A stretch of 63,719 bases of DNA, filler included, from Collodictyon triciliatum (taxonomy: Eukaryota): the NCBI GenBank assembly GCA_043381765.1. It is 6 parts of 6 records of this genome, joined end to end, with 100 filler letters (N's around TTAATTAATTAA, not from the genome) between each part and the next. Parts side by side here need not be neighbours in the genome. Positions count along the whole stretch, not along the records: positions 19,341 to 41,872 come from JBHJMP010001145.1; 5 more parts are not named here. One strand, 5' to 3'. The position numbers and the translations under genes were made by a program. How positions within the stretch are numbered: position 1 is the first letter of the stretch; the number at the start of each line of letters is the position of its first letter. Shown piece after piece: positions 19,241-62,444 of the stretch. The notes under the pieces were generated by a model. It made no database searches and had not been told where the DNA came from. It saw only the letters and a list, made by a program, of their open reading frames with translations.

Positions 19241-19340
19241 NNNNNNNNNNNNNNNNNNNNNNNNNNNNNNNNNNNNNNNNNNNNTTAATTAATTAANNNN
19301 NNNNNNNNNNNNNNNNNNNNNNNNNNNNNNNNNNNNNNNN
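19241..19340. other. Artificial contig spacer (N-run, TTAATTAATTAA, N-run)
   Basis: The same 100-nt all-frame stop linker recurs at 41873, 53738, 60768 and 62345. Confidence 0.97.
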
Positions 19341-20211
19341 TGGGTACTCTCGTTGCTGTTGAGGGTGCGCTCCCGCTTTGTTCCAGTCTGCTCCGGCGTG
19401 TGGGCGGCCGTGGAGGTGGGTCTTTGGAACACAGACGCAGATGCAGATGCAATCATCTGGTGGGAGGACATCTGCTGGGCGACTTTTTCGGCGATAGCGG
19501 CTTGGCGTGTTACTCTGCGGGTAGCAGACACGCCAGCCTTTATCGCGGAGGTGGCTGCCTCTGTTGGCTTTGTCTGTTTGAGGGTGCTGCGAAGTGTTGT
19601 CTGTTTGCAGACATCGGAGTTGCCGCTCGCCTTCGCTTGGGTGGCGGTGGGCTTTGTTTTTGTCCGCTGTGGGGCGGCGTTGGGTGCGGCTTTGCCTGTG
19701 AGGGTGCCTGCCGATTTGGAGGGCACGTTTGGGTCTTTGTCCGCAGTGGAAGGGGAGCCTCTTGTGGAGTCTTTAAAGTTGGCGGGGTTTTGCCTGGGTT
19801 GGTGTGTGTGCTGACTCTGGAATTGACGCGAGCTGTGATGTGGCTTTGCCTTTGTTGTGGGGTAAAGCGCTCGGCCGTCTCCCTGCGGGGTTACGCAAGG
19901 CCCAGTCTGCTCGACAGGTCGGATGCCAGCAGCACAACGCCCTCCGTGGCGCACTCGCGGGTGCGGTGGACTTCGCACAGCTGCCCCAGCAAACGCAGGC
20001 GTGTGGCGTGCGTCAGTGTCTCAGTGTATTCGCCCACAAGGCGCACCACACAGCCGGCCGGGTAGAGTCCCTTCTCCTGCAGCCCCGCTGCTCGCTCCAC
20101 CGGTCGCGTCCGGCAATGCTCGTAGACCACATTCTCGTCGTCAAAGTGAGGCACCTCGCTCTTGTGCGTTTCGCTTGCGCTCACCGCACCTGAGCTCGGC
20201 TTGGTTGCCAT
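19341..20211 (-). mobile_element. Probable degenerate ORF1 of a non-LTR retrotransposon
   Basis: GC-rich and intronless. Reads GLYPAGCVVRLVGEYTETLTHATRLRLLGQLCEVHRTREC, then a stop/frame change into an A/T/K/S/P-rich tail. The tail resembles the ORF1 tail preceding the LINE endonuclease at 42300-42540. Sits at a contig end. Confidence 0.4.
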
Positions 20212-21140
20212 ACGTGTGGTTTTTGTGCAAAACCAAAAGGGCTTTGTGTGCGATCGTTACGGACAATTTACGCGAATGAAACAGCGGGCTCCTTTTTTCC
20301 GGGGATAGGTTCTACTTTACTGGTCATATTATCACACGATTATCAGGAAAAAAGCGATGCTTGTTCTGATTGAATAAAAAAAATCTTGTCACTATTCCAA
20401 GCTAAAAAAAAACAAAATAGAACAGAAGAGAAGAAAAGCGAAGAAAAGCGAAGAAAAGCGAAGAAAAGCGAAGAAAAGAGAAGAAAAAAATTGCATCGAG
20501 CAGGTGAATGTCGAAGAATTAATCGAGACTAATCGCACAGGGAGCCAAAAACCAAACACAAACACACACCAAACACACACCAAACACACACAAAACAACA
20601 AAACACTTCGCCAAACAATCAAACAACTGCAGATTCAACAGACAATGATACAGTCAGTCAAGGATATGGACAGCCTTCAAGTCGATGAATATAATATAAG
20701 ACAGAATAAAGGCACACAAAGCGAGTGCATGTATCGTTACAGCCCTCGTCATACACGAAAAGAAAAGATTGTGTTCATGAAGCTGACATTGTGACTTATA
20801 AGAAGCGAATAAAAAACTAAGTAATCAAATGAAATCATACAGCCTCAGTAGTACGATGATAACCAACACATAATCATTCCTTTCGCCTGTGATACATACT
20901 CAAGGTCGATTATCAAACAAACAGGAGATGTGTCACCTTTTTCGGCAAGTGCTGGTGAGGTTGGGTTGATTATTTTATTTATTCTTTTCATCCAGCCTCT
21001 GCAAACAAGCTAGCAATCGTCTGTATTCATTCGGTTTGGCGGTCATCGTGATAGTACTCACATGCACTTGTTTCTGTGGAAAGGCTGGTGTATGTGTGGA
21101 TGAATGGATTGTTTAGAAGGGTTGGTAACTGACGAGCCCC

Positions 21141-24100
21141 TTATTGGGTCAGCTTCTTCTGTGCGCTCATCATTTGCTTTTCTGAAAGCTTTGTATGAGG
21201 ATGGTCTGCGCCATAGACAGCGTTGAAAATTGTGTTGGCTTTTTGGGACATGTCCAGAGCCTCTTGGTATTTCTTCTGGTTAATGAATAGGCTACCAATA
21301 TTCCCATATGACATCGCAACACTAGGGTGTGTCTCTCTATATACATTCAGTGTAATGCCAAGGTCTTTGTGATAGTATTCCAGGGCTTTATCATGTCCAT
21401 TAAATAATAAGTTGATGAAATTAATAAACATATACATGATCAAATAAATCATACTTTCCAAGATTCTTGTAAACTATTCCAATGCTATTATAGGAAGTGG
21501 CAACACCAGTATGTATTTCTCCAAACACTTTCAGTCGGATATCCAGTGATTTTTGATAGTATTCAAGAGCTTTGTCATGTCTATTAAATAATAAGTCAAT
21601 TAAATGATAAATGTAACATATAATCAAATAAAAAAATACTTTCCAAGTTCATCGTAAACGTGCCCAATATTTCCATATGATTCTGCAACATCAGGGTGTA
21701 TTTCTCCAAACACTTTCAGTTGAATTTCAATTGACATGTGGTAGTATTCTAGAGCTTTGTCATATCTATTAAATAATAATTTAATAACAAAAAAAATCAA
21801 TTAAAAATCTAATAAAATCATACTTTCCAAGTTGATAATAAACAATTCCCAGGAAATTCAGATTTTTGCTATTCGAACCTAAAAAAGATGAATCAAAGAA
21901 TTATTAACACAGTCAAAAAAATACACACAAATCACCAAACCCTCATCCGTCTCAACAGAAATGCGGTGCTCGAGAATCGGAATCAAAAAGGCATTCTCTT
22001 GAATTTCTTGAAAGTATTCAACCAACGCAGAGCCAGCATGATTCAGTTGCTGTTGTGCATAGTCATTAAAATTAATCCATGATTGATATATGTAATTGAG
22101 TTTTATCACCTTAGCCAACTCACAATACACAGCTTTGTCGTCATAACCGTTCTTATTCAGCTCTCTCCAGTATCCATAAAACTCGAAGCGATAGTTGCCA
22201 TGCAGCATGCTCACAACAACCTAAAGACTATATTACAACATATGTCACAGTAATAAAAATAAAATCCACAATTTAACCTTTTCAATCTTCATAAAATCCA
22301 CCAATTTATTGTATTCGCTCGAAATCCTCAGTTTGTGTCACATTTCGGCAACAACACTCTTGTCTTCAGTGTCAGAGCCATATTCACCCAGCAGCCACAA
22401 TCCATATTCACGTGCTTCCCTTGTTGTGTAAGCTTCACCCTTAAAGTATCGCTCTTTGATGGATTGTGCCAATAACTGGTGAGAGAACGCATATCTAAGA
22501 TAAAACATTGTGATTAACAATAACGATCATTAAAACTATTGAATAACCGTATCACCTCCCGTTCCTCACAAAGAGCGAGTCCAGCAATACAAAAAGAAAT
22601 GATTTCCTATTATAAAAAATACGATTTATCAAAAGTTTGCATATAAATCATATGACAGGAATCGATATACCAGGTTGTATGGTCGATTTGCATGTGAATT
22701 TGGTGAAGTCGATGCTTCATGTATTTGTCCAGCTCGTTTTCATGAAGACCGATGCGCGACACATAAAGGACACTGATGGACAGACGGACAATATCCTCTC
22801 CTAAAATTCCATATAATTCAATAAATCATATTAAAAGAACCACTTTAGATGCATCACAAAACCGTATTTCTTTTCCCAGCGGCTCATCACAAGGTCGAAC
22901 AAATTGACAACTCCCTTCGTCTTCAGCATTTCATGAATCTCAGCATCAACTCTTTCATACACTCCAAACGCACGGAGCTCATCCAACACGATACGCAGGT
23001 AGAGTGGATGACCTGCTCTCGTATTCATCATCATTAAAATATGTGTCCTAAAAATAAAATATAAAAATATTCGAATAATTAGCTACACTCACCAGTATCA
23101 CCACATTTACTCAGTATCACATCCATCTGTTTCTCGTTCAAGGTCTTGTTGTAGCGCTTGAAAAACGAGGTAGTTGCTTGTCTGATTCCGACATCATCAA
23201 GCTTCGGCACAGGAATGACATCTAGCCCTGCTGACTTGGCATCCTATTCAAAAGCGATTGGATTAATTCAATCATATTATATCCTCGAAAAAATTAACAA
23301 ACATTGCAGGATTCGTGGGTGTCGATGGTTGATGCGACGATGGAAGTGTTCTTTATTGTCTTTTTGGGAAGCCATTCAAGGCGGTGGACGTGCTTGTTTT
23401 GCTCTGAATTGACCAACTGGTTGAATGCATCGATGACCAAGACAACTTGCTTTTTTCTGTATTGATAGGCTCGTCAGATAGTATTTATTTTAATAAAAAA
23501 AGTGATTATTGAAATTGACTCGTTTCTTGAAGCAAGCTTGAGTATATGGTCTAGTCCCTTCTTCAAAGCTTCTTTCCCTGCAACAAGGCATAAAAACAAA
23601 TTAATGCCTATGTAACACGTAGAATTAATGCTTTCAAAAATAAATAAACCATTTATCGTTTTGACATATAAACCTTCTTCGGAGTCAAGTTTTAGATCGA
23701 TTGCTTCATTTTCAACAAGAATGCGAGCTACACGCTCCACCAAACTATTGCAAAAATGGTGATTGATATAATATGACCAATTTAAATATGTAAACTTACT
23801 ATATTTTTTTCCTTTATTCGAATTTAAACTTACTATATTATTCGATTATTCTTACTTATCTACGTAGTTACTCAGGTTTGAGCATCCGACAAAGTGGTAG
23901 ATGACTAGTAAATTCGACTTTTTGCCCGCGTTCAGGTCACGAACCAGCCCGCTCATAATCGTCGATTTGCCAATACCAGACTCTGCACCAACGACGGTAA
24001 TGTCAGAACCTTCAATATCGAGTTGCAGCATCGCTCTGTCTTTCAAAATGGCCAAGATGGTGTCTCTTCCTTCCAATCCAATCAGTCGATGTCGCATAAA

Positions 24101-25354
24101 CTGCTTATGCGCCATGTCCTCAGGATGCTTATGCTACAAGGTTTTGATATTATAATTAAAGAGCCAAAAATTCTTTCTTAAATGGTTATAATTACGAGTA
24201 AATTTAAAAAATGTATTGAAACCTTACCCCTTGGTCGGGAAAATCCTCGTTGATTGCTTCCATCAAATCATCAACCATCATCGGGACAAGCTGCTGGGGT
24301 GTCTTGTATGGCTTGACTTCAAACACATTTCCAATCTTTTCTTTCAATCCATCCTGGTTTTCTCTCTGAAATAAAGGGTAATATGTGTTTTTGAATTATT
24401 GAGGTATTATAAAGGGAAATGGTCCGAACTCCTTTCTGCTTACGTCATTTTCATCGATTGGGCGATATAATGCACGCTCTGCATTGGTTTCAGCAACATG
24501 GTTGACTGCATGTTCTTCATCTCGGGAATAGAAGAGTGCACGTCGGGCAACAGGATTTTCTTACAGAGCACCGTGAACAAACTATTTGATATAATTGATG
24601 TTAGATAAGAGCAGTAAAAAATACAAATGTTTGACAACAAGCGAATATACTGTATAAATAAACCTCGTAGTCAGTCACACTGAGACCCCTAACTCTTTGA
24701 GGTATGGAAACGTCAAATCCGTGTCTGGATGCCATTCAGATGGGTTTTCATGTTTTGGTGACCAGCCATAACGTGAGCCGAGCGTGCATAGAAAGTATGG
24801 ACATTCCTCGATAGACTCAAGGCAGCTGATAACGACCTATATAATCGTGATAATTTAAAACTGATAAATAATAAATGAAAAATAGAAAAATCAAGAAAGA
24901 ACTTGAATAATTCCCACCAATCCATTTTCAGATCTCTCACTGGTTAGCCCCCAGCGCAAGTCAATGAAAACAAGGATGACACCCTCCTTTTTGGCAAAGT
25001 CTTTGAGTCTGCAACAATTTTTTGATTTATAAATAAATCCAACATACAAACATGTAATCATGAATTTTTTAATTGAATAAAACGATGTTACTTTTTTTCG
25101 GCATTTGCAAAGAACTCGTCTCTTTCTCTTTGCATGTCTCGAAACGTGGAGGACATGAAGATTCTCAATACTCTGGTATCATAGACAACAGTCCATCTCC
25201 CTTCGCCATCATAATAAACTGCGCCTGGAATTAAGCCTCTGCAGATTTTCTCATCAGCTGGTGCAGGTTCTCGTATTGGTTCCATCTGTTTCTGGTCTCC
25301 AGATTCTTGCTGGTTGGCGGCGTCAGATTGTCTGCTTGGTGATGGCTCAGACAT
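21141..25354 (-). pseudogene. DUF4062-NACHT/STAND NTPase-TPR (NPHP3-like/NLR-like) gene with four lesions
   Basis: LRIFMSSTFRDMQRERD, FIDLRWG and LGSRYGW (DUF4062); Walker A GAESGIGKST; YHFVGCS; Walker B VVLVIDAFNQL; GHPLYLRIVLDELR; SRIGLHENEL; 42-aa TPRs DKALEYY..SL.I.LKVFGE.HP.VA.SY..IG. Lesions: frameshift near 24690, TAA 24563-24561, TGA 22340-22338, GG acceptor 21398-21397. Confidence 0.88.
21397..21823 (-). repeat. Tandem exon+intron cassettes of about 184-185 bp, each encoding one TPR
   Basis: Exons 21765-21640 and 21580-21455 are 126 nt each. Phase-2 introns 21823-21766, 21639-21581 and 21454-21397 are 58, 59 and 58 nt and share GTAT.. donors and TTATTATTTAATAG-type acceptors. Confidence 0.9.
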
Positions 25355-25929
25355 ATTCCTGTTGATTAAATGCGAATAATATATGGGATTAAGAATTGTC
25401 AAAGAATATACTATAATCGTATGCTATTCTCTCTGTTTGATCGCCTCGGATGATTCAATACGATTAATCGACTCGTCATATTTCCTATCACTTTTGATTT
25501 TCATGATAACTCCACTAAAAGGAGTATTATTGATAGAAATTCTCGGATAAATACATTTTTGTACAATAGTGAGGGTTAAAACTCCACCCTTGATTACAAT
25601 CTTATTTTTCAACTATATAATGATGAATCTTTAACAAAGCCCATATTTGAAAGTAAAAATAAAGGTAAAATAATGTGTGAATCATGAAAGATGAGGCCTT
25701 TCGAAACAAAGTATTTGCTTCTAGATTATGCATTATATTATTTTAAAAAAAATTATCTGAGAACAAAGAATTAGTTAGTTTAGACCATTTTGACCCATAA
25801 GCCAAATCGTGCTTGAATGTTCTTGATAAAAAAAATTATTCTTCTCATTTTATTAAACAATCATATATACAAAAAATGCATCTTAAATAATCCAGCAGCC
25901 GATGCGAGAGGCCTGTACATTCCTTTACT

Positions 25930-39458: not shown

Positions 39459-39799
39459 NNNNNNNNNNNNNNNNNNNNNNNNNNNNNNNNNNNNNNNNNN
39501 NNNNNNNNNNNNNNNNNNNNNNNNNNNNNNNNNNNNNNNNNNNNNNNNNNNNNNNNNNNNNNNNNNNNNNNNNNNNNNNNNNNNNNNNNNNNNNNNNNNN
39601 NNNNNNNNNNNNNNNNNNNNNNNNNNNNNNNNNNNNNNNNNNNNNNNNNNNNNNNNNNNNNNNNNNNNNNNNNNNNNNNNNNNNNNNNNNNNNNNNNNNN
39701 NNNNNNNNNNNNNNNNNNNNNNNNNNNNNNNNNNNNNNNNNNNNNNNNNNNNNNNNNNNNNNNNNNNNNNNNNNNNNNNNNNNNNNNNNNNNNNNNNNN

Positions 39800-41206: not shown

Positions 41207-41972
41207 ACCCTTAGGATACTTGGTTTCAGTCCTAGTCTCAAAGAAAAGAAAACAAAAAGAAAACATAAAGAAAACATAAAGAAAACATAAAGAAAACAAA
41301 CCACATTAGAAAGGGGAAATGTTCTTTGTGCCTCTCTTCTCCAACTTTGTTATTTGTTTGGTAGTTGACTGCCCAGGAGGTCAGTCCAATGCGAGGTGGG
41401 CATGGTGGAATTCAGGCTTTGAGTACCAACTTTGCGAGCCAGGCTCTTTGAGACTTGATAGCAAAATACAGAAAGTCTTTTATATATCCACGGCGAATTC
41501 TTTTGTAGAATACAAACGGACGAGGGTTTGTCTCAGCCACTGGTCAGAAACACACAACTTTACTTCCAGGGTCTGCCTTCTGCTCTTTTGCCTTTGAGAC
41601 GCGCGTAATCACTTTCTACCCACAGACACAGTACTGTGTGTGCTGCAATGGAAACAATTTCGATTGCAATTATATTTATCTTTCTCTCTCTCTCTCTCTC
41701 TTTTTTTTTTTTTTCATTGAGAGAAACGGCAGGTATCCGGTGGAATGTGGGTGTTGGTGTGGCTTTTATCTTTTGTTGTTGTCTGGGATAACAATAGAGC
41801 TGGGATGATCGGCGTGTTTTCCTTTAGCTTTATGTTTGTTGTTTATAGTGATTCTCTGAGGTTCTTTTTTTTNNNNNNNNNNNNNNNNNNNNNNNNNNNN
41901 NNNNNNNNNNNNNNNNTTAATTAATTAANNNNNNNNNNNNNNNNNNNNNNNNNNNNNNNNNNNNNNNNNNNN

Positions 41973-42540
41973 TTATACGAGTGTCAGCTCCATCGATTTG
42001 GATATCGAGACTTATGCAGCGGCCAGGAATAATCTCTCTGAAGCGAGGATTGAGTTTGGCTATCCATTTCTTGCATAAAAACGCTACACCTGCGTGTCTC
42101 TGATGATTGTCGTCACAGAACCACATTTGTGGACCTTTCCATATTTCATCATTGGTTAGATTGTCAGGGCTGAGCCATGTTTCTTGGAGGCAGATGATAT
42201 CTGCATGAGTGAAAAGAGCAGTGTTTAGGGCCTCTTTTCTTTTTTGGGGGTCGTTAATCCCCGTAACGCTCCACGACAGAACGTTAAAACGCATGAAAAG
42301 TCTATTGGCTTTTGGAGGCCGTAGCCTCCGGTGATTGGTCCTCTCCGCTGGAGCTGGGTTACTCAGAGTGGGATGGTTTACTCGATTTGTCCTTCATTTG
42401 GCCGCTACTATTATTGCTCGTGGTTCGGCCAGGATTTGTCAGATAGTCTTGGGCTTTGGGCTGTAGCCCCTTTGTAGCTGGCGTGTTGGGAGATGCACTC
42501 TGTTGGTCATTGGCAACCCTTGGTTCCACTTTTTTACCTC
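41973..42540 (-). mobile_element. L1/Tx1-type LINE: ORF1 tail plus start of ORF2 APE endonuclease (ATG 42294), cut by contig edge
   Basis: MRFNVLSWSVTGIN..DIICLQETW..AGVAFL..GRCISLDI is an APE endonuclease signature. It is preceded 7 nt upstream by the stop of a low-complexity ORF1 tail that has an internal TAA. Confidence 0.88.
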
Positions 42541-45900: not shown

Positions 45901-46400
45901 TAGTTATATTTGACTATTTGCCTTTTAATAGAAAAAACGCAGTCTACCTTCTCCACCTAGATTGATAATAGAAAGAGAAAGAGAAAGAGAAAGAGAAAGA
46001 GAAAGAGAAAGAGAAAGAGAAAGAGAAAGAGAAAGAGAAAGAGAAAGAGAAAGAGAAAGAGAAAGAGAAAGAGAAAGAGAAAGAGAAAGAGAAAGAGAAA
46101 GAGAAAGAGAAAAAGAAAGAGAAAGAGGAGAAAAAGAAAAGAGAAAGAGAAAGAGAAAGAGAAAGAGAAAGAGAAAGAGAAAGAGAAAAAGAAAGAGAAA
46201 GAGGAGAAAAAGAAAAGAGAAAGAGAAAGAGAAAGAGAAAGGAAAAAGGGGCACACGACTAAATATTTGATTCCATCATGTTGTGTTGCGTTGTTTTTCA
46301 ACTAACAAATCACCTCCAAGTAAAAAGAAGCACGATCGCGGGTGGCACCGGTCAAACTAGTGAACTCGTCAAAAAGCTTGCTTTTGTTTGCGCCGCTCAT
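42939..46400 (-). CDS. UBXN7: UBA-UAS-UBX domain protein (UBXN7/Ubx5-like), multi-exon
   Basis: UBA-like FTSLTGATRDRASFYLEAFGWDMELAANQFF; LTDLFAPPVDIM; FNSQRLNRDTWSNP; YPWVGIMDPRTG; UBX QLRLPSG..MPRKEF..TLREAGLAPRAAIFI; TAG 42941-42939. Confidence 0.88.
45969..46240. repeat. (AGAGAA)n microsatellite in UBX gene intron 1
   Basis: Tandem repeat read directly. Confidence 0.97.
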
Positions 46401-46995: not shown

Positions 46996-48263
46996 TCAGT
47001 TTGAAATGGGGCGGAAGGGCGTTGGGGCCGGGAAGCAGATGCCTTGGGAGTCACAGCCGTAGGGGCAGTAAGGCGGGGACGTGGCGCCGACAAAGAAGCA
47101 GTCGCAGTTGTAGCAGGGGCAGGAGACGCCATACGTGAAGGTGTACAGGCCGTTGCTGAAGCCAGAGAGGAGGGTGCCCACATATTCGGTCACGCCGTAG
47201 GGAAGTGCGGTGTATCTGGCGGGGAGGAGGGGATGGCTTAGAGTCCCTGCTGGTGGTGCGCTTCATGCGGCATGCGTAGATACATATATGTGCGGACAGA
47301 CGAGNNNNNNNNNNNNNNNNNNNNNNNNNNNNNNNNNNNNNNNNNNNNNNNNNNNNNNNNNNNNNNNNNNNNNNNNNNNNNNNNNNNNNNNNNNNNNNNN
47401 NNNNNNNNNNNNNNNNNNNNNNNNNNNNNNNNNNNNNNNNNNNNNNNNNNNNNNNNNNNNNNNNNNNNNCGAGAAGTAGTACTTGTTGCGATTGTTGTCG
47501 ATGGTGAAGAAGCCTGGTGAAGAGAAAGTCTGCTTTTAGATTCTGCACTCTCCGCTCGTTGGCTTGCTTCATCAAGGTCGCGGCCAGCAGCAGGGTTGGG
47601 TGCTGGATGTGTCTTTCCTTTGTGTTTTTCATGTCCCCTTTCATTTCGGGACGGGGTAATTAGGTCTTTCTTACCGTAGAATGTGTCGCACATCATGCAA
47701 AGAAGTCGGCGGAAGGCGAGAGAGCAGTTCTCGGTCTGCGGGATGGTGGAGAAGCGATTTCTGAGCTCATTGCCGAAGGGGCCTGAGCAGCAGCCGGGGT
47801 TGTATCTATTGCACAGAAACAGGTTCAGCTTTGCTTAGAGGCGTATGCCTTGCTTCCTTTTGCTGAGAGGGGGATATGTCGCAAGACTTTGCGGTAAACC
47901 TGGAGCAGTAGTCGGATGAATCAACAGGCGCAAAGGGAAGGCCAGGAATGCCTTCGGGCTGCGTGGAGGTGTTGAAGAAGCGCAGACAGGTATTCTGGTG
48001 TCCGCTGTATATTCCTCCGAGTTAGAGTTGGCATAATATTCTATTGTCTTGCTGGGACGTGCAACTGAAAGGCTTATTATTATAATTTTTCTGTGCACCG
48101 TGGTTCCTTTGATGCCTTCACCAAGCAAACACCCAGTTTTACTCTATTCAGAGACGACATGGTAGGAATGAATAGAAGCGTACATGTCTGAGCGAGCCAG
48201 CGTAGGGTAGACAAGGGCAAATACCAAGCAGGCGCAGGCCAAGGTCTTTGTGGTGGCGTTCAT
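46996..48263 (-). CDS. Secreted Cys-rich protein with HHIP-N/folate-receptor-like CRD, spanning an N gap
   Basis: Spliced: MNATTKTLACACLVFALVYPTLARSDI/GHQNTCLRFFNTS..DYCSR/YNPGCCSGPFGNELRNRFSTIPQTENCSLAFRRLLCMMCDTFYG/FFTIDNNRNKYYFS..gap..YGVSCPCYNCDCFFVGATSPPYCPYGCDSQGICFPAPTPFRPISN*. Confidence 0.65.
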
Positions 48264-48637: not shown

Positions 48638-50748
48638 CTAGACGCTGTCGTTCAGTTTCACAAACGAATCTGGTGCAATATTGCTCTTTTCCTGCTTCAG
48701 GACCCAACGACGATACCAAAAGTGCGAATCATCCACTGGGATGTGGCTCGGGATGGCCATTAGCTTTTTTTTTTTAAAAAAAAAAAATTATTAATCACGA
48801 TGTTTTTTTCTTCTAACTTTTTGGTAGCAACAGAGAAAGGAATACTTCCTGCCATACATTCGGGGACATTGCACAAACTCACGTTAAATTCGGAGACAGC
48901 ACCAGCAATCACCAGCCCCTGTACGTTGACAGACGAACCGTCCCCAGTAAAGGAAGAGTAGGCCGATGAAAAAAGGATGGTAATTGGGAACAAGAAGAAG
49001 GGCGTCGTGATGTTGATGAAGATAAAGAATATGTACCAAAGAATCTTTCTCAATAAGAGTCTGTCGCCCAACCTTATTCAAATTCAAATAGATAAATGAA
49101 TCTGATAAGACCTAAAAAAAAAAAAAAAAAGAAGAAAGAAGAAAGAAGAAAGACCAAATAACAACAGTAATAAATATAAATGACAGCAAAATGATCAAAA
49201 AATAAAATAATTGAGACCAGAGACTGTGAAATTACCTTTCGCTCTCCGATATCCAACCGGTAACGGCAGACAAAAACAATATTATAGAAGAGTATGATAT
49301 TATATTTCGAAGTTCCCCTGATAAATTAGTTAGAGAGCTCAAAATGATAGCCATAGTGAAAAGAAATAAGCATCTGACATTTGAATCCATTTTTTAGTTA
49401 TTGATAAACAATTTTAATCTATTTATTATTATGAATACAACGTTAGGACAGGAATGAACGAAAATATACCAGGACTTATATCCACGGCGAATTCGAACGA
49501 AAGGTCTGGTAGCATGTAGCACCCATAAACTTTATTCGGAAGAAAGCATAGGACAAACAAAAGATGATACAGGTAAAATCCTGAGATGTTGGAGGTCATC
49601 CTTTCAAAGAGATATTCTGGGGAAAACATCTTGACACGAAGGAAAAGCATGATTGGGAACAAAACCACCTTTATAAGGGTTTATGTAAAAATTAATAGTT
49701 AAAAATGGTTTTGGAAAGGTGAATTTTTTTTTCATATAATACATCCATGAGAAAGATATGGGACGGTAAAACTCACATATACAAATTGTGTGATTATAAT
49801 ACCAACGTCGATGATAAAGTATAGTGAGGCTGAAAATGCTTCATTTGATATTCCCTAATCCAAAATAAAAAAAAATTTAAGCTTCATAAAACAAAAAAAA
49901 AAAACAGCCATCATAAATATATGAGTCTCATAACAGGAAACATTTCTTTGGGGTTGCAAGATGGATTACTAACTTGAAAACGATCTGCGCTTATGGGGAA
50001 CAGATCATTTCTATTTGGAACGATGTATGATTCGCAGGTGTCATCGTTTTTCACCATTGTGTACTGTTCGTTGATTGCAGTTTCAAGACAAAAGTGTGTT
50101 TTTTCAGAGATGTAGCACACGCTGGAATCATTCCGAGAAGCAAAGTATGTGAAATTTCCCTATGTTAAGATTATTTTACAACATCGTATTGTATTCTATT
50201 TGGATTATCAAAAAAAAAAAAAAAAACATATATATCATACGTAGTTATCACACTAGGATATCTTGTGAAACGCATACGGTGTAGTTATCAAATCCGTTGT
50301 AGGTGAAAAAAACGTATAGCAGCAGGAGCGAAGGCCGAATCACCATCCAGACGAAAGAGGCGCGTGCCGTCTTGATTTTGAAAGGAAAATAGGATTTTAC
50401 GAATACTTATAAAATGTCTAAAAGCTAGTCTGTGTAAAATTTTTCATATGTGTTTTTTCCCCATTTTAAATGAGTTGGTCTATAGGCTATCCCATGGTTG
50501 ATATATGATTTTTAAGAGAAAAAGACAAAATCTAAACTGGAGTATTCCACTATAGCATTTGTTTTTCTATAAAAGCATTTTCTAACATTTATTAAAAAAT
50601 GGAGGAAGATCAAATATAATGAGCTGAATAAAAATTGCAATAAGAATACGGCAAAATTTAAAACGATGAGGATGTTGGAAATCCTTACATTTTCCTTGTT
50701 GGCAGCCTCCGGATCCTCTTTGCTCACAGCTCCAAGAACTGCATCCAT
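48638..50748 (-). CDS. Orphan multi-pass membrane protein, multi-exon
   Basis: In-phase exons carry several hydrophobic segments (FVWMVIRPSLLLLYVFF, SLYFIIDVVVLFPIMLFL, FYLYHLLFVLCFL, ILWYIFFIFINITTPFFLFPITILF) and a Cys/N-x-S/T-rich first loop; TAG 48640-48638. Confidence 0.65.
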
Positions 50749-50843
50749 TCTTTTCTGGTTGCTTTTTCAGAGGCAATATATGATATAAATACACGCAAAA
50801 ATAACATGGAGACAATATGAAAAATGGCATGGCAATAAAAGGC

Positions 50844-51002
50844 CAAAACAAAACAAAACAAAACAAAACAAAACAAAACAAAAAAAAGTAAAGAAAAGTA
50901 AAGTAAAGAAAAGAAAAGAAAAGAAAAGAAAAGAAAAGAAAAGAAAAGAAAAGAAAAGAAAAGAAAAGAAAAGAAAAGAAAAGAAAAGAAAAGAAAAGAA
51001 AA
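50844..51002. repeat. Compound (AAAAC)n-(AAAAG)n microsatellite
   Basis: Tandem repeat read directly. Confidence 0.97.
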
Positions 51003-51864
51003 GGAGAAACTCCTGGCTGGATATGATGAATTTGAAGGACAAAAACGAAGACGGGAAACACTCGGAGTGCTGTGTTGCACACACCCCAAGTGGGAAGCAA
51101 GACATGGCTGCCTCTCACACAAGCCCACTCTCACATTGCCGACTCCGCCCTCTCTGAAAGGCCAAACACCCTTTGCTGCTGGGCGGACTCACCCGGCCTT
51201 TTGTTGCCTGCTTTGGGATTTGGCCGGGTTGATTGGCACTTGCGTCTGTCAAAATTTCACGCCTTTGTCAAAGAAATGCCCGCCACTCTCTACTCATCCA
51301 GAAGCAAGCACCATTATTTGCGCCGTGGGAGGATTGTTCTTTCATATTGTTGCCCAATGAGTTTATGTGGTATGCGTCTTGGCAGCCACTAGAGATCTTT
51401 ATTGCCTTTGTTGTCTCCGTCATTCCTCTAGCCTTTCCTCTACTTCTTTTCCTTCCTTTTTCTTTCCTTTCCTTTCCTTCCCTTTCCTTTCCTTTCCTTT
51501 CCTTTCCTTTCCTTTCTTTTCCTTTTTTTTTTTCTCCTTCTTTTGAAATATGCTTGGCTTGGCCTTCGTACATTCTGAGGGCGCCTTTTGGAACATAGCC
51601 TTTGATCTGGCCACAACAACTAAGCCCTTGTTTTTACAGACAGCACAGGAACGCCTTGTCCCATTGCCGCCAAGGACCGACAGCGTTACTTGATCACGAT
51701 CCACCCCGTTAAATAGATGGACGCCCAGTAAGAAGACCAAGATCACCATTCCATCCTTCTTCGCTGTCCTATTCTATTGCCTTCGATGTGTGTGTGCGTT
51801 TTTTCTTTAAAAAAAGAAGATAAAGATCAACAATACGCTTCGGTCAAAAGCTGTCAAATAATAT

Positions 51865-53737: not shown

Positions 53738-53838
53738 NNNNNNNNNNNNNNNNNNNNNNNNNNNNNNNNNNNNNNNNNNNNTTAATTAATTAANNNNNNN
53801 NNNNNNNNNNNNNNNNNNNNNNNNNNNNNNNNNNNNNC

Positions 53839-54761: not shown

Positions 54762-56285
54762 TCACGACGATTTGTGGATTGCAAGAGACGCCCTGTCTTC
54801 ACAAAAAATCATATCTCCATCACGAGCGTTGAGCTGCGCAAGCGTCTTTGTCGGGACCGAGATGCGTTCTAGCCCGAAGCGTCCCTCTGCACCCACATCA
54901 TCATAGTACAGAGTCTGGTTCTTTGATGGGATTCCAAAAAACTCTTCGCACATTTCCTTCAACTGGCGCGCGCAAGTGTAAACAGACAGTGTGCGAAGCA
55001 CAGATTGGTGGCCATCAGCACGTAGCAGAATGGAGACCGCTAAAGGTGCTCTCAAATCCACAGATGCCAGCGGCTCCAATTCACCGTGCTTGGAAATGAG
55101 TCTCTCCATGTGTTTCCGAGTGGCCTCGCTGTTGAAGTCCATCGAAGCACGAACAGATATATCCAGCTGGATTTTAGGGTCGTAGTAGCGGATGAATGCG
55201 CGCTCTGCATCCTGTAGAAAGCAAATGATGAAAGCATAAGCATCCTGGCAAATCATTGAGTGTGTTTGTGAACAAAAATAGCCCGGATGTATTAGGAAAG
55301 GTATGAAATCGTCATTTTCCGAATATTGTGCAGATTAATCAATCAAAAAGTGAAGTTATGTGAAAACTTATGATTATTGCAGGATACGTACCTCCCGCTC
55401 TTGTTCGGTTATTGAGCCTCCATTGAGGACTCTCAGATTGGGAAGTCGTCCTATTACTAGGAATCGGAACAGGGTTACATCAGAGTAACGGGACGCCAAT
55501 GGTGTGTTTGAAAGCCGGATTTCGGTCAGAGATGGGAATTGGAGAAATGAGTCCACAGAGTCCCATGAATCTATGATTGAGTCTGCGACGTTGATTGACA
55601 AAAGACAAGGCAGTGGTGAAGGCACATTAAGCCTCATGACCGGATTCTCAGAGAGGATGAGTTTGCGCAGGGCAGGAGTAAAGTGCTCAAGAAAAGCAAA
55701 CAGCTTGTCGGTGGACTCGATGCCGTTTCCCACCAGACTCAGCAGCTCTAGGCTCAGCAGGGAGCCCGCATGACTATCGACATTTTCCGGAACTGTTCCA
55801 AGGCCAGATGCGCGAAGGACAAGCTGCTGCAGATGGGGAAAGCAACGCGCGATGCGGATGATTTGTGGCCACGTCTGCTTGGCTTCGTTGAGAATGAGGA
55901 TGCGCAGATGAAGGCAGACAAAGGCAGACGCTGATGCCTCGTCCATCTCCCCGAGCGGAACAGCACTCAGGTCGAGCTGCTGCAGTCGTGTCCATTGGGC
56001 ACATAGCGAGAAGACGTCAGGCCATGAAAGTCCCTTGGCCCCTCTCAAATCTGCCTCCTCAACCATGGGGCAGGCCTGCTGCAGCGGCTCGCTCTCGCTT
56101 GTGGGCTGCTCGTATAGAGCTTTGCGGGTCAGGTCGAGGTTGTGAAAGGAAATCACGCGCAGTTGTGTCAGGGCTGGTCGACGCACTAGATGATGTCGGC
56201 GAAAGGCTCCCGCTTCTTCTGGTGTGAGGAGCTGCTTGGGTGTGTACTTTTCTCGGATGGCTTCTGCAAGGACGTGCAGGCTCAT
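54762..56285 (-). CDS. TBCEL: Tubulin-folding cofactor E-like protein (LRR + ubiquitin-like), one intron at about 55213-55392
   Basis: AIREKY N-terminus without CAP-Gly; LRRs; VIGRLPNLRVLNGGSITEQERE/DAERAFIRYY; KHGELEPLASVDLR; C-terminal Ubl domain. Confidence 0.92.
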
Positions 56286-57499
56286 AGCTCTTCTGTGGTA
56301 CAAATGATGAGGGAGAGTCAACACGTTTTCTTTTTGTTTGTTTGCTTTTTGCTTCTTTTTGCTTTTTTTTTTNNNNNNNNNNNNNNNNNNNNNNNNNNNN
56401 NNNNNNNNNNNNNNNNNNNNNNNNNNNNNNNNNNNNNNNNNNNNNNNNNNNNNNNNNNNNNNNNNNNNNNNNNNNNNNNNNNNNNNNNNNNNNNNNNNNN
56501 NNNNNNNNNNNNNNNNNNNNNNNNNNNNNNNNNNNNNNNNNNNNNNNNNNNNNNNNNNNNNNNNNNNNNNNNNNNNNNNNNNNNNNNNNNNNNNNNNNNN
56601 NNNNNNNNNNNNNNNNNNNNNNNNNNNNNNNNNNNNNNNNNNNNNNNNNNNNNNNNNNNNNNNNNNNNNNNNNNNNNNNNNNNNNNNNNNNNNNNNNNNN
56701 NNNNNNNNNNNNNNNNNNNNNNNNNNNNNNNNNNNNNNNNNNNNNNNNNNNNNNNNNNNNNNNNNNNNNNNNNNNNNNNNNNNNNNNNNNNNNNNNNNNN
56801 NNNNNNNNNNNNNNNNNNNNNNNNNNNNNNNNNNNNNNNNNNNNNNNNNNNNNNNNNNNNNNNNNNNNNNNNNNNNNNNNNNNNNNNNNNNNNNNNNNNN
56901 NNNNNNNNNNNNNNNNNNNNNNNNNNNNNNNNCGATGCAAAGTCACCCGATTTAATATTCTTTTGTATCACCCGAAAAAGCCCGTGTCCACAACACACCT
57001 TTAAAACGTGGAAGCTTGCTTTGCCTCCTATCTTTCCCTTTGTCTGCATGTTTTTCCCCTATCAAGATGCTGTACTCACCTCCAACCTTGGGGATATATT
57101 CCGTGCTCCAGAATCGTGCGAGCAGCCGAAGCTAGCACAACCGAATCTTAAAGCCACTCATTACAAAGTTCGGCTTAGAATGCTTTTTTTTTTTTATTGT
57201 ATCCAAACAGGGAAAGGGGAGATTTATCGGGGGAGATAAAACACAAAAAGTATTTTATAGGAGAAAAAATGAGGCACGTGTGATAAGAACGAGGTGGTAA
57301 AAAAGTGCACCTGAAGCGTTAATGTGCCGGGATGGGCAGAAAGAGCCATAGACACTATCATTTTTACCACCATCCATAATCATCACAAATCAAGGCTTTT
57401 TTTTAGGACAGGACCATACCCAAATTCTCACTCATTTTGTTATGATAATACTGAAAGAAAAAAAAAGGAACAGGTAAATGAGGCTCTGGTCAAGCTGAG

Positions 57500-59442: not shown

Positions 59443-60668
59443 TTAGTACTCATCCATGGGAGGGCAGGAGCAGATCAGATGGCGATCGCCATATGCATTG
59501 TCAATGCGGCCGACAGAGGGCCAGAACTTGCGGGCCTTGACCCAGGGGAGCGGGAACGCAGCCTTTTCTCTCGAGTATGGGCGGTCCCAGTTATCGTTCA
59601 CAACAACGTCGCAAGTGTGCGGGGCGTTGACAAGAACGTTGTTCTTGGGGTCAGCCTTCCCTTCCTCCACTTCACGAATCTCCTGTCGGATGCTGATGAG
59701 GGCTTCCACGAGTCTGTCGAGCTCAGCCTTGGGCTCGCTCTCTGTAGGCTCAATCATGAGTGTGTTGGGGACGGGGAAGGACATGGTCGGAGCGTGGAAA
59801 CCTGCAATGCGTCCGTAGAGTGTAAGTTATATTTGGTGTCGAATAAAACAAATGGGTCACAGAACGGCCATGAGTGAATTGTGGTGATTCAAACTCTACC
59901 GTAGTCTTGAAGTCTCTTGGCGATGTCTTCGGCCTGGATTCCAGACGACTTGAGGGTGCGGATATCCATGATGAATTCATGGGCGCAGAATCCTAGCATT
60001 TGATTATTCAGTGTACTATTTGTTAGAATGTTCCCGATTCGCCAGTTATCCTTTCTCTCTGACTGCTTTAAGCTTATGTATGTGAAATGGATTAAAATGT
60101 ATGGGATGTGCTGTTATGGACAAATGTATTGTGCGTTTACCTCCGGGTCCACTGTACAACATATCGTAGTGACCGGACAGCTTCTTGCGCATGTAGTTTG
60201 CATTCAGCAGGGCAACCTAGTCAAGTATTAAGATTGGGACGCATCCTTTGACAAGCGCACGAGAGAAAAGAAATTGAAGAAATTAAGTTCTTGTGTCTGG
60301 TGGGTGCAGTAGCTTTACCTGAGTGGCTTTCTTGAGACCAGCACCTCCCATCAACTTGAGATATACCCATGTAATGGGCAGGATGCTTGCGCTTCCGAAG
60401 GGGGCTGCAGAGACTGGGCCAATTGACTGCACCCGGATTTAAATTGGTCACATGTGTAAGTTAGAGACTGGAAAAATGAAGTCCTGAGCTTGTTAGTAAA
60501 GATACAGAGGGCACGAGGGTACCTGGTCAGTGCCGGTGTGAATGACTGGATGGGTTGGCAGGAAGGGGGTGAGGTGCTTGGCGACACCAATCGGACCCAT
60601 TCCAGGGCCTCCTCCACCGTGAGGGATACAGAATGTCTTGTGGAGGTTCAAGTGACAGACATCGGCAC
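59443..60668 (-). CDS. GLDC: Glycine dehydrogenase (glycine cleavage P protein), C-terminal exons
   Basis: [97 protein letters not shown] stop. Confidence 0.97.
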
Positions 60669-60708
60669 CTGGGGCAAGGGGTTCGATGGTTAGTGTATCT
60701 ATTTCTTT

Positions 60709-60742
<34 letters not shown>

Positions 60743-61569
60743 TTGGGTTTTAATTGGGAATTTGTTTNNNNNNNNNNNNNNNNNNNNNNNNNNNNNNNNN
60801 NNNNNNNNNNNTTAATTAATTAANNNNNNNNNNNNNNNNNNNNNNNNNNNNNNNNNNNNNNNNNNNNACATCAGAATCATTACATATTTCCATTGCATTA
60901 GCTCAAAAATAAAGTAAAAAAAAATGCACCAAACAATGTCAGAAGAAGAATAAAAAAAAACAAAGGTGAATAGATGGATGCGTGATGTCTGGGGGTGGAC
61001 ACACAAACAAAAGTCGCCGAATCTGCAGACACAGTACACCCGCCCCTACCGACTACTATCTGTATTTCCGGTATGAGAATGCAGCTGCCCTTCGATAAAG
61101 ATAAGATCATCAAATATGGACCTAGATTACAAACGATTCTTCGACATTCATCCAATATGGAGCCGCCTCCCTTTTTCGCCCACTTGAAATCATGCACTAC
61201 ACTTTCATCATTTGTGGATACATACCGTGGCCATTAAAAACCCTTATTTCAAAACCAAACCAACATTAATTTTTCAATCTCAGCCCGTAATTCTCGACTT
61301 CAGAGAGCAGAAATCGCCCCAGGTCTACCAAAACCAGCGCCCGCACCCATATTCAGCCCATGAAAAGCTCGACCACTTTGCCTCCTCACATGATCGAGCG
61401 GATATATGGCTAGGAGTGAAGCCAAGAGAAAGAAGATTATCATTATCATTATCATTACTCTAAAAATAAAAAGAAGGAAGGTGGCTGCCGCTCAGCCTGT
61501 TGCTTCTTGGCTGGCTTGCCCTGTCGATTTACCCGAGCGTTTTCTGCAATAAAGTCAAAACAGGAAAAC

Positions 61570-62344: not shown

Positions 62345-62444
62345 NNNNNNNNNNNNNNNNNNNNNNNNNNNNNNNNNNNNNNNNNNNNTTAATTAATTAA
62401 NNNNNNNNNNNNNNNNNNNNNNNNNNNNNNNNNNNNNNNNNNNN

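What the first reader, a model, noticed from the sequence alone, without database searches (positions are those of the whole stretch)
21141..21880. NLR-like receptor whose TPR sensor is built from duplicated one-repeat exon cassettes with variable positions
Seen: each TPR is a 126-nt exon flanked by 58-59-nt phase-2 introns that are themselves homologous, so the unit of duplication is exon plus intron (about 185 bp). Scaffold residues are nearly constant (DKALEYY, LKVFGEIH, VAxSYxxIG, LGK). A fixed set of positions changes in every copy: HMSIEIQ/QKSLDIR/HKDLGIT and ESYGNIGHVYDE/TSYNSIGIVYKN/MSYGNIGSLFIN. Known: STAND-TPR receptors with conserved repeats and hypervariable sites occur in fungal NLRs, and one-repeat-per-exon shuffling is described for brown algal NB-ARC-TPR and ROCO genes. 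Inference: this organism has a DUF4062-NACHT-TPR family that diversifies specificity by cassette gain, loss, exchange or in-frame exon skipping, which would be a candidate innate-immune system.
Basis: partly seen in the sequence, partly recalled or inferred. Interest (0 to 1): 0.78.

Follow-up and report, generated by a model that had tools for sequence, protein, structure and literature searches.

The report
Broken NLR-like gene with TPR exon cassettes
The repeated 185-base exon-plus-intron unit is real and forms the sensor end of an NLR-like gene (NADase-type domain, NACHT switch, TPR repeats), but this copy looks like a disabled member of an expressed protist gene family, and both its architecture and its one-repeat-per-exon layout are already known elsewhere.

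Summary
Observation confirmed with corrections. On the minus strand, 21141-25354 holds a 20-exon gene of 948 codons: DUF4062 (NIR), then NACHT, then about 4.5 TPR units of 42 residues. Two exons are exactly 126 nt. A third unit is the first 126 nt of the last exon. Three phase-2 introns of 58, 59 and 58 nt are homologous (73-75% identity, against 57-60% for other introns of the gene).

Interpretation partly supported. RNA contigs from four public runs show spliced relatives at 85-99% identity. The nearest full-length proteins (30-49% identity) are at least 16 Diphylleia rotans transcript clusters with 5.6 to 11.6 units, and their truncated isoforms end at unit borders.

This copy carries four lesions: a 1-nt deletion that the relatives lack, in-frame TAA and TGA codons, and a GG in place of the AG acceptor of the last cassette intron. 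A neighbouring gene shows none, so this copy is probably a pseudogene.

The cassettes are old (dS 0.55-2.2) and under purifying selection (dN/dS 0.15-0.49). Their variable sites are the generic variable sites of this TPR type. None of 48 isoform pairs skips a cassette. DUF4062-NLR-like proteins and 126-nt TPR exons are both in print.

The parts
21141..25354 (-). Coding span of the NLR-like gene. It has 20 coding exons and 948 codons plus a stop when read through the lesions. Exons: 25354-25092, 25008-24918, 24836-24664, 24581-24444, 24365-24228, 24133-23856, 23744-23674, 23577-23520, 23456-23303, 23243-23093, 23012-22863, 22800-22671, 22606-22556, 22494-22278, 22220-22110, 22049-21941, 21878-21824, 21765-21640, 21580-21455, 21396-21141.
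   Evidence: Model. It has 19 introns of 57-111 nt. All are GT..AG except the last acceptor, which is GG. Joints in RNA contigs of relatives match 14 introns (tables 5 and 5c). Loose ends match 2 more (table 7). Three were not seen. The translation is collinear end to end with D. rotans proteins at 30-49% identity.
24444..25178 (-). DUF4062 (NIR, TIR-like NADase-type) domain, spread over exons 1-4
   Evidence: Pfam DUF4062 scores 27.4 bits (cut-off 24.7) on 24678-24836 and gives a weak hit on exon 1. The relative P0024 matches the solved TEP1 domain 11gz_A at E = 4e-18. The SVTDYE motif, which holds the conserved Glu, is at 24681-24664.
24691..24693 (-). Frameshift: one base is missing between 24693 and 24692 (GAG[A]TTAGG in the relatives)
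   Evidence: Contigs in all 4 runs run unbroken over 24664-24834 and carry one extra letter behind 24692 (tables 4 and 8). With that letter the frame reads KEIRGLSVTDYE, as the relatives do.
24561..24563 (-). In-frame TAA, codon 183
   Evidence: It aligns with a variable site in 7 D. rotans proteins (K, M, C, I, Q, R, I).
23093..24133 (-). NACHT / NPHP3_N P-loop NTPase module (exons 6-10), with Walker A GAESGIGKS and Walker B VVLVIDAF
   Evidence: The exon fragments give only weak Pfam hits to NACHT and NPHP3_N (E = 0.0024 and 0.01, below cut-off). The relatives pass the NACHT cut-off: P0004 27.5, P0005 35.4, P0010 30.4 bits against 26.7.
22338..22340 (-). In-frame TGA, codon 668
   Evidence: It aligns with Cys in 4 of 7 D. 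rotans proteins, and with A, T or V in the others. No SECIS element was found.
22050..22109 (-). 60-nt in-frame intron inside what first looked like one exon
   Evidence: It is GT..AG. It appears as a 20-residue insertion against all relatives. An X5 contig joint runs 22051 to 22115 (table 5c).
21824..21878 (-). 55-nt exon 17, the first half TPR unit (SNSKNLNFLGIVYYQLGK)
   Evidence: It is homologous to the 3' third of the cassette.
21766..21823 (-). Cassette intron, 58 nt, phase 2
   Evidence: A joint 21758 to 21817 is seen in X2 and X5.
21640..21765 (-). Cassette exon 18, 126 nt, one 42-residue TPR unit
   Evidence: Pfam TPR_12 E = 3e-9 on the open frame that covers it..
21581..21639 (-). 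Cassette intron, 59 nt, phase 2
21455..21580 (-). Cassette exon 19, 126 nt, one TPR unit
21397..21454 (-). Cassette intron, 58 nt. Its acceptor reads GG (21398-21397) where the other two read AG.
   Evidence: The relatives splice here (joint 21390 to 21449 in X2 and X5). A 151-nt contig of X1 that is 100% identical to the window (21380-21530) is unspliced and includes the GG (table 8).
21271..21396 (-). Third cassette-like unit, fused into the terminal exon
   Evidence: 64-66% nt identity to exons 18 and 19. TPR_12 E = 4.4e-14.
21141..21270 (-). C-terminal capping TPR unit and the TAA stop
   Evidence: It aligns with the C-terminal cap of P0027. It is 43-45% identical in nt to the cassettes.

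Best explanation
The locus is the 3' end of a eukaryotic NLR-like (STAND) gene. The N-terminal DUF4062/NIR domain is a TIR-like NADase-type effector. It is followed by a NACHT/NPHP3_N nucleotide switch with a helical arm, and then a sensor of kinesin-light-chain-type 42-residue TPR units.

In this gene family each internal TPR unit is one symmetric phase-2 exon of 126 nt. New units arose by tandem duplication of exon plus intron (about 185 bp), most simply by unequal crossing-over. This keeps the reading frame and changes the length of the sensor.

The three units in the window are old duplicates kept under purifying selection. The window's copy has since been disabled by a 1-nt deletion in the NIR domain, two nonsense codons and the loss of a splice acceptor. 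It is best read as a young pseudogene of an expressed multigene family.

Shown: the anatomy, intron homology, lesions, spliced expressed relatives, variation in unit number between paralogues, and intron positions shared with D. rotans.

Inferred from homology: in intact paralogues, ligand binding by the TPR array would drive NACHT oligomerisation and switch on NAD+ hydrolysis, as shown for bacterial DUF4062-Avs proteins.
For: Architecture:
- Pfam gives DUF4062 at 27.4 bits (cut-off 24.7) and TPR_12 at 52.9 bits (cut-off 30.1).
- The relatives carry DUF4062 + NACHT/NPHP3_N + TPR_12.
- The TPR part matches kinesin light chain structures at E = 1e-31, and the N-terminal part matches TEP1 chain 11gz_A at E = 4e-18.

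Cassette:
-.

Gene model:
- 16 of 19 introns are matched by joints or loose ends of RNA contigs.

Family:
- 22, 255, 229 and 62 contigs were laid in the four runs, spread over all identity classes.
- Only 17 proteins among 1.84 billion representatives matched at E <= 1e-3. Eleven of them are D. rotans.
- Five more D. rotans clusters came (named).

Shared intron positions:
- Eight truncated isoforms (P0007, P0009, P0020, P0021, P0032, P0275, P0276, P0279) end or diverge exactly at unit borders. P0034 and P0014 do so within one or two residues of a border.

Unit numbers:
- 4.5 here against 5.6 to 11.6 in the relatives.

Lesions:
-.
- Control for assembly errors: the neighbouring glycine dehydrogenase exons match an independent 326-residue protein with 0 mismatches over 260 codons.
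- The GG acceptor is seen in an independent contig.

Mechanism, from two bioRxiv preprints (10.64898/2026.09.04.749371, sections 5, 8 and 9 read; 10.64898/2026.05.01.722283, sections 5 and 11 read):
- DUF4062 hydrolyses NAD+.
- It is the effector of an Avs2 STAND-TPR antiphage protein.
- It heads most eukaryotic DUF4062 proteins, which are NLR-like.
Against: - It has no row at the TAA or the TGA, so I cannot say that the relatives have sense codons there.
- Apart from the four lesions the reading frame and all motifs (Walker A and B, GHPLYLR, the capping unit) are intact. Either the gene was disabled recently, or some lesions are alleles or errors.
- No DNA reads of the source organism and no whole assembly were available.
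- Transcription of this very copy is not shown. The single 100% identical contig could be DNA.
- NADase activity and an immune role are inferred. Purified human NWD1, NWD2 and NPHP3 were inactive in vitro in the Osinski et al. preprint.
- Unit-number differences were measured between species, not within this genome.
Confidence: 0.68

Rival explanations
1. The gene is intact and functional. The four lesions are assembly errors, alleles of one haplotype, or are bypassed, for example by readthrough or recoding of TAA and TGA.
For: - The frame is otherwise fully open over 948 codons and every conserved motif is kept.
- One search lists differences shared by all runs at 24485 and 22419 but none at the two stop codons, so the expressed relatives may carry the same codons.
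- The TGA aligns with Cys in 4 of 7 relatives, as a Sec/Cys pair or a Euplotes-type code would.
Against: - The missing base is not in a homopolymer, and it is present in the contigs of all 4 runs.
- The GG acceptor recurs in an independent contig.
- There is no SECIS element.
- The neighbouring gene shows 0 mismatches in 260 codons.
- D. rotans relatives give ORFs of 1000 residues or more under the standard code.
- TGY-to-TGA and AAA-to-TAA are single-step mutations.
- Transcripts of relatives run at least 140 nt past the terminal TAA (record 5), unlike organisms with context-dependent stops. This last comparison is recalled.
Confidence: 0.15
2. One reading: an actively diversifying immune repertoire in which cassettes are gained, lost, exchanged or skipped at high rate, and a fixed set of sites is under diversifying selection.
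For: - The symmetric phase-2 126-nt exons allow in-frame gain, loss or skipping.
- Unit number differs between paralogues.
- There are many expressed relatives.
- Odd joints (21396 to 21688, 21580 to 21938) and loose ends that read like other cassettes could be paralogues with other cassette orders.
- Sites 28, 35 and 38 of the unit correspond to canonical TPR helix-A positions 2, 9 and 12, which lie on the ligand face (recalled from the TPR literature).
Against: - dN/dS is 0.15-0.49 and dS 0.55-2.2 between units. Nucleotide identity is only 64-75%, far from the near-identical repeats of fast-shuffling systems.
- The variable sites match those of unrelated prokaryotic TPR_12 arrays.
- 0 of 48 D. 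rotans isoform pairs have an internal unit-sized gap.
- There are no spare or inactivated cassettes and no second gene in 63.7 kb.
- The odd joints have unknown letters between their sides and short sides of 24-31 nt.
Confidence: 0.12
3. The family has no immune role. It is a set of NPHP3/NWD/TEP1-like scaffold or regulatory STAND proteins, for example of the flagellar apparatus, and the cassette structure is only a relic of how TPR arrays grow.
For: - Source annotations of prokaryotic relatives and Pfam models point to nephrocystin-3 (NPHP3_N, TPR_NPHP3).
- Mammalian DUF4062 proteins have no known immune function.
- Purifying selection acts on the units.
- PADLOC finds only a generic TPR model.
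Against: - At least 16 diverged paralogue clusters in one protist, with variable N-terminal additions (RRM, CH domains) and variable unit numbers, plus a pseudogene here. This looks like a birth-and-death family rather than a single-copy housekeeping gene.
- The conserved Glu of the NADase motif is kept in all relatives aligned.
Confidence: 0.2

Closest known systems
Ectocarpus NB-ARC-TPR genes with repetitive TPR exons (Zambounis et al. 2012, PMC3341825; passages read)
   Same: It is a STAND NTPase followed by TPRs in which each 42-residue unit is one 126-nt exon. The exon lengths preserve the frame. The family shows birth and death with pseudogenes, and exons are inactivated by nonsense mutations or lost splice sites.
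   Different: - Here the NTPase is NACHT/NPHP3_N with an N-terminal DUF4062, not NB-ARC.
- The introns are 58-59 nt and co-duplicated.
- There are no inactivated cassettes inside introns and no clustering in the window.
- No sign of positive selection was found here.
- The nearest relatives are in a freshwater diphyllatid flagellate, not a brown alga.
- Exon phases in Ectocarpus could not be checked, because the supplements are closed.
Eukaryotic NIR (DUF4062)-NLR-like proteins: NWD1, NWD2, TEP1, TTC41, NPHP3 (bioRxiv 10.64898/2026.09.04.749371 and 10.64898/2026.05.01.722283)
   Same: An N-terminal DUF4062 with the conserved Glu sits next to a NACHT-type NTPase and C-terminal repeats. The preprints report thousands of such proteins across EukProt.
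   Different: The mammalian members mostly carry WD40 repeats. Only TTC41 and NPHP3 carry TPRs. In the sections I read, the exon-cassette build of the sensor is not described. Table S5, the hit list, could not be seen, so I cannot say whether the D. rotans family is listed there.
Prokaryotic DUF4062-NACHT-TPR proteins, including DUF4062-Avs2
   Same: They show the same three-part order at 27-31% identity over about 95% of the 720-residue non-TPR part. 1572 proteins scored E <= 1e-5 among the 8000 scored. The 42-residue TPR consensus is the same. NAD+ depletion on sensing a phage protein has been shown experimentally for one Avs2.
   Different: They have no introns and form a continuous TPR array. 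PADLOC models of Avs give no significant match to the relatives apart from a marginal Avs1b hit at E = 8e-4.
Fungal NACHT-TPR NLRs with highly conserved 42-residue TPR-like repeats (Podospora anserina; PDB 4y6w and 4y6c)
   Same: They pair NACHT with 42-residue kinesin-light-chain-type repeats. P0025 matches 4y6w and 4y6c at E = 2e-17 and 6e-17.
   Different: As I recall it, fungal repeats lie in one exon and are nearly identical within a gene, with a few hypervariable sites. Here the units are 64-75% identical in nt and are split by introns.

Membership tests
DUF4062 / NIR (TIR-like NADase) domain | Match to Pfam PF13271 above its gathering score | tested here: met
   27.4 bits against a cut-off of 24.7 on the exon 3 peptide. 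Relatives score 38-43 bits.
DUF4062 / NIR (TIR-like NADase) domain | Conserved catalytic glutamate (E1008 of human TEP1, E108 of PsAvs2) | tested here: inconclusive
   The window encodes SVTDYE. The second Glu is invariant in all 8 aligned relatives that cover this site. By eye it lines up with SVTEMEV of the TEP1 chain. That this Glu is E1008 rests on assumed chain numbering. In the window it lies 3' of the frameshift.
DUF4062 / NIR (TIR-like NADase) domain | NAD+ hydrolysis | not testable with these tools
   This needs an enzyme assay.
NACHT-type STAND NTPase (NLR-like) | Walker A and Walker B motifs, and a match to the NACHT or NPHP3_N models | tested here: met
   GAESGIGKS and VVLVIDAF can be read directly. 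The exon fragments score below cut-off (18.2 and 16.1 bits). The collinear relatives pass: NACHT at 27.5-35.4 bits against 26.7, and NPHP3_N at 27.5-30.7 against 24.8.
NACHT-type STAND NTPase (NLR-like) | Three-part order: effector, NTPase, C-terminal repeats | tested here: met
Kinesin-light-chain-type TPR (TPR_12 / TPR_10, 42-residue period) | Pfam match above cut-off, and a 42-residue period | tested here: met
   TPR_12 at 52.9 bits (cut-off 30.1) and TPR_10 at 34.9 bits (cut-off 27.5). Units of 42 residues. The relative matches KLC1 and KLC2 structures.
Exon-cassette TPR receptors (Ectocarpus NB-ARC-TPR type) | One 42-residue TPR per 126-nt exon of symmetric phase | tested here: met
   Two exons of 126 nt enter and leave in phase 2, and there is a third fused unit. 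The same borders are inferred in D. rotans.
Exon-cassette TPR receptors (Ectocarpus NB-ARC-TPR type) | NB-ARC nucleotide-binding domain | tested here: not met
   The Pfam hits are NACHT, NPHP3_N and nSTAND1. There is no NB-ARC hit in the window or in the 8 relatives scanned.
Exon-cassette TPR receptors (Ectocarpus NB-ARC-TPR type) | Signs of ongoing shuffling: inactivated cassettes in introns, gene clusters, lineages with omega > 1 | tested here: not met
   There are no further cassette matches in the window. Pairwise dN/dS is 0.15-0.49. This is only one locus and three units, so power is low.
Functional (intact) gene | Open frame and canonical splice sites throughout | tested here: not met
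   Frameshift at codon 167, TAA at codon 183, TGA at codon 668, and a GG acceptor before the last exon.

The most novel reading that the evidence does not exclude
A freshwater protist lineage near Diphylleia builds the TPR sensors of a large, expressed family of NLR-like receptors with NADase-type (NIR) heads from symmetric one-repeat exons whose introns are duplicated along with them. This would be an origin independent of the brown-algal NB-ARC-TPR genes, or a very old shared design. Sensor length (4.5 to about 12 units) would then be tuned by cassette gain and loss, and perhaps by regulated intron retention at cassette borders, as part of an immune repertoire with rapid gene birth and death. 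A second, less likely surprise would be that the in-frame TAA and TGA are shared by expressed relatives and are read through.
Probability: 0.25. Interest if true: 0.65.

Novelty: new member of a known kind. Interest (0 to 1): 0.38.

Why it matters
DUF4062-NACHT-repeat proteins have just been linked to NAD+-depleting immunity in bacteria, and they are widespread but functionally obscure in eukaryotes. This family sits in a deep-branching protist lineage. Its sensor is modular at the exon level, as in brown-algal candidate receptors. It could show how repeat sensors of STAND proteins grow and shrink, and whether the exon-per-repeat layout arose more than once. The window's own copy adds little beyond that: it is probably a dead member, and the signs of diversifying selection that would make it a strong immune candidate are absent.

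Tried and rejected
- **Whole genome:** none is held, so paralogues and repeat numbers in this organism could not be counted.
- **Public runs:** none holds more than 9% of the gene's words. Parts without cover are not used as evidence.
- **Metagenome scans:** the exon 15+16 peptide as first modelled (21941-22220, which reads through a 60-nt intron recognised later) gave 339 pattern matches but no relative. A 22-letter cassette pattern gave 26 loci, all intron-less TPR arrays at 25-51% protein identity, with no cassette and no NACHT relative.
- **Word-index search:** the P-loop exon against longer proteins found nothing, although HMMER later found relatives.
- **First gene model:** it held a false 74-nt intron (24762-24689) and missed the 60-nt intron at 22109-22050. 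Both were corrected.
- **Selenocysteine at the TGA:** no SECIS element at the gathering threshold in the whole window, nor at E <= 10 in 20000-22400.
- **Alternative genetic code:** not supported by the neighbouring genes or by the D. rotans ORFs. It is not excluded for the two stops.
- **Earlier findings of this scan:** four look-ups found nothing.
- **Rfam:** no RNA family in the window.
- **PADLOC:** only a generic TPR model and marginal Avs1b and mad8 hits.
- **Structure prediction and complex prediction:** not run.
- **Literature:** a search for Diphylleia + NACHT found one unrelated paper. I therefore found no description of this family in print in the searches.
Full report
**What is there**

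The region lies on the minus strand of an intron-rich eukaryotic sequence with about 37% G+C. Tandem Repeats Finder reports a 185-bp period at 21366-21779 (2.2 copies, 78% matches, score 481).

I built an exon chain from ATG 25354 to TAA 21143-21141 and corrected it twice. The final model has 20 coding exons and 19 introns of 57-111 nt (mean 72). All are GT..AG except the last acceptor. It reads 948 codons when carried through the lesions.

RNA contigs of relatives in four public runs support the model. Fourteen introns are matched by joints, two more by loose ends that continue into the next exon, and three were not seen (tables 5, 5c and 7). The same contigs showed that my first 74-nt 'intron' at 24762-24689 is exon sequence. 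An X5 joint, together with a 20-residue 'insertion' against all relatives, revealed an in-frame 60-nt intron at 22109-22050.

**Domains**

- Exon 3 passes the Pfam cut-off for DUF4062 (27.4 bits against 24.7).
- The P-loop exon gives weak NACHT and NPHP3_N hits. It reads GAESGIGKS, with VVLVIDAF downstream.
- The 3' end gives TPR_12 at E = 4.4e-14 and TPR_10 at E = 1.4e-8.

**The cassette**

- Exons 21765-21640 and 21580-21455 are each 126 nt and enter and leave in phase 2.
- The first 126 nt of the terminal exon (21396-21271) is a third unit.
- A 55-nt exon (21878-21824) is a leading half unit.
- The last 126 coding nt form a diverged capping unit that aligns with the C-terminus of P0027.
- The three introns (58, 59 and 58 nt) are 73-75% identical to each other. 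In 42 control comparisons with seven other short introns of the gene, the mean was 57-60% and the maximum 67%. They share the 3' end TTATTATTTAAT[A/G]G.

The window holds no other copy of the cassette or of the gene.

**Age and selection**

- Unit-to-unit nucleotide identity is 64-75%.
- Nei-Gojobori dS is 0.55-2.2 and dN/dS is 0.15-0.49 for the three cassette units. The duplications are therefore old and the units have been under purifying selection.
- Six of 42 sites differ in all three units: 13, 15, 25, 28, 35 and 38.
- I took 36 units from D. rotans and one Stenamoeba relative, and 147 units from 27 intron-less prokaryotic homologues. The per-site entropies of the two sets correlate (Spearman 0.67, p = 1e-6).
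- The six sites carry 2.5-3.8 bits in the prokaryotic set, against a median of 1.85.

The 'fixed set of variable positions' is thus the ordinary variable face of this TPR type. Three of the sites fall on canonical helix-A positions 2, 9 and 12, which is the ligand face. That register is recalled, not computed.

**Lesions in this copy**

1. One base is missing between 24693 and 24692. Contigs in all four runs carry it and then read KEIRGLSVTDYE, as the protein relatives do.
2. TAA at codon 183 (24563-24561), at a site that varies among relatives.
3. TGA at codon 668 (22340-22338), aligned with Cys in 4 of 7 relatives. There is no SECIS element.
4. The acceptor of the last cassette intron is GG. 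The next AG would shift the frame and hit a stop after 16 codons, as read directly.

A 151-nt contig of run X1 is identical to the window over 21380-21530. It contains the GG and is unspliced. As a control for assembly quality, the neighbouring glycine dehydrogenase exons match an independent 326-residue protein with 0 mismatches over 260 codons and no frame break.

I read this copy as a young pseudogene, because every motif is still intact.

One caveat remains. One search printed only 40 of 305 differences, and none lies at the two stop codons. I could not verify that the relatives have sense codons there (note).

**Relatives**

- HMMER of the P-loop exon against 1.84 billion representatives found only 17 proteins at E <= 1e-3.
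  - Eleven are Diphylleia rotans transcript ORFs in EukProt.
  - Three are short fragments from NCBI or JGI contigs. One of these is 88% identical and ends where the exon ends.
  - Three were not looked up.
- A second search added five more D. rotans clusters and one from Stenamoeba. It then ran into prokaryotic DUF4062-NACHT-TPR proteins at 27-31% identity: 1572 scored E <= 1e-5 among the 8000 scored.
- The window protein aligns end to end with the D. rotans proteins at 30-49% identity.
- Their C-terminal repeat regions span 5.6 to 11.6 units, against 4.5 here. One alignment failed and was dropped, and two values include non-TPR tails.

**Isoforms in D. rotans**

I compared 48 pairs of Trinity isoforms within 12 clusters. 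None differs by an internal gap of unit size. One pair shows a 7-residue substitution block and nothing else.

The shorter isoforms stop or diverge exactly at TPR unit borders, or at sites homologous to other introns of the window gene. This fits retained introns at the same positions and phases. One tail starts as if the intron began GTATGC, which resembles the GTATGA seen here.

Exon-per-repeat structure is therefore a family trait. Cassette skipping is not seen.

**Mechanism and literature**

Two 2026 preprints show that DUF4062 is a TIR-like NADase.
- It is the effector of an Avs2 STAND-TPR antiphage protein that depletes NAD+ when triggered.
- It heads most eukaryotic DUF4062 proteins, which are NLR-like (NWD1, NWD2, TEP1, TTC41; NPHP3 is marginal).
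- Human TEP1 is active through E1008, whereas purified NWD1, NWD2 and NPHP3 were not active (sections read as listed).
- The relative P0024 matches the solved TEP1 domain at E = 4e-18.

Zambounis et al. (PMC3341825; passages read) describe 13 Ectocarpus NB-ARC-TPR genes whose TPR domain is built from 126-nt, 42-residue exons, along with pseudogenes and exons inactivated by nonsense mutations or lost splice sites.

What is new here is their combination, in a lineage whose nearest relatives are diphyllatid flagellates. My searches found no description of that. Supplementary tables that might list it were closed.

**Verdict**

The locus is a likely pseudogene member of a known kind of receptor family. 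Cassette duplication is real but old, and diversifying selection and exon skipping are not supported. Interest is moderate.

Noticed in passing
window 59446-60669 (-): Only the C-terminal ~260 codons of a glycine dehydrogenase (GcvP2_C) are found, in at least 3 exons. They match P0146 (JGI, 326 aa) with 0 mismatches. Residues 1-719 of the 94%-identical full-length P0147 find nothing in the window. The best named relatives of the last exon are Bacteroidota at 75-79% identity. This could be a gene fragment, a masked stretch, or a gene of bacterial ancestry.
   Followed up: partly
window 62490-63719 (+): A 410-residue open frame runs off the end of the window. It is rich in T, N, S and G and has no Pfam match.
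   Followed up: partly
window 41973-42393 (-): A fragment of an Exo_endo_phos (LINE-type) endonuclease lies next to a run of N.
   Followed up: no
window 25355-25360 (-): RNA contigs of X1 and X6 leave the window sequence at 25360, just after an AG and four bases before the ATG. This suggests a 5'UTR intron in the relatives.
   Followed up: no
window 20426-20487, 45925-46305, 50582-51130: Long microsatellite arrays: (AAGCGAAGAA)n just 3' of the gene, and (GA)n and (GAAAG)n-like runs elsewhere.
   Followed up: no
window 19241-19340, 41873-41972, 53738-53837, 60768-60867, 62345-62444: Paired runs of 44 N separated by 12 bases recur at five places. Longer N runs lie at 39459-39799, 47305-47469 and 56373-56932. 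They are presumably masked stretches.
   Followed up: no
P0002, P0030, P0033 (D. rotans relatives): Family members carry extra modules. P0002 has WD40 propellers after the TPRs. P0030 has an RRM and P0033 a calponin-homology domain at the N-terminus.
   Followed up: no
window 54762-56372 (-): A gene with LRR_9/LRR_4 repeats has one exon of more than 330 codons, unlike the finely split NLR-like gene.
   Followed up: no
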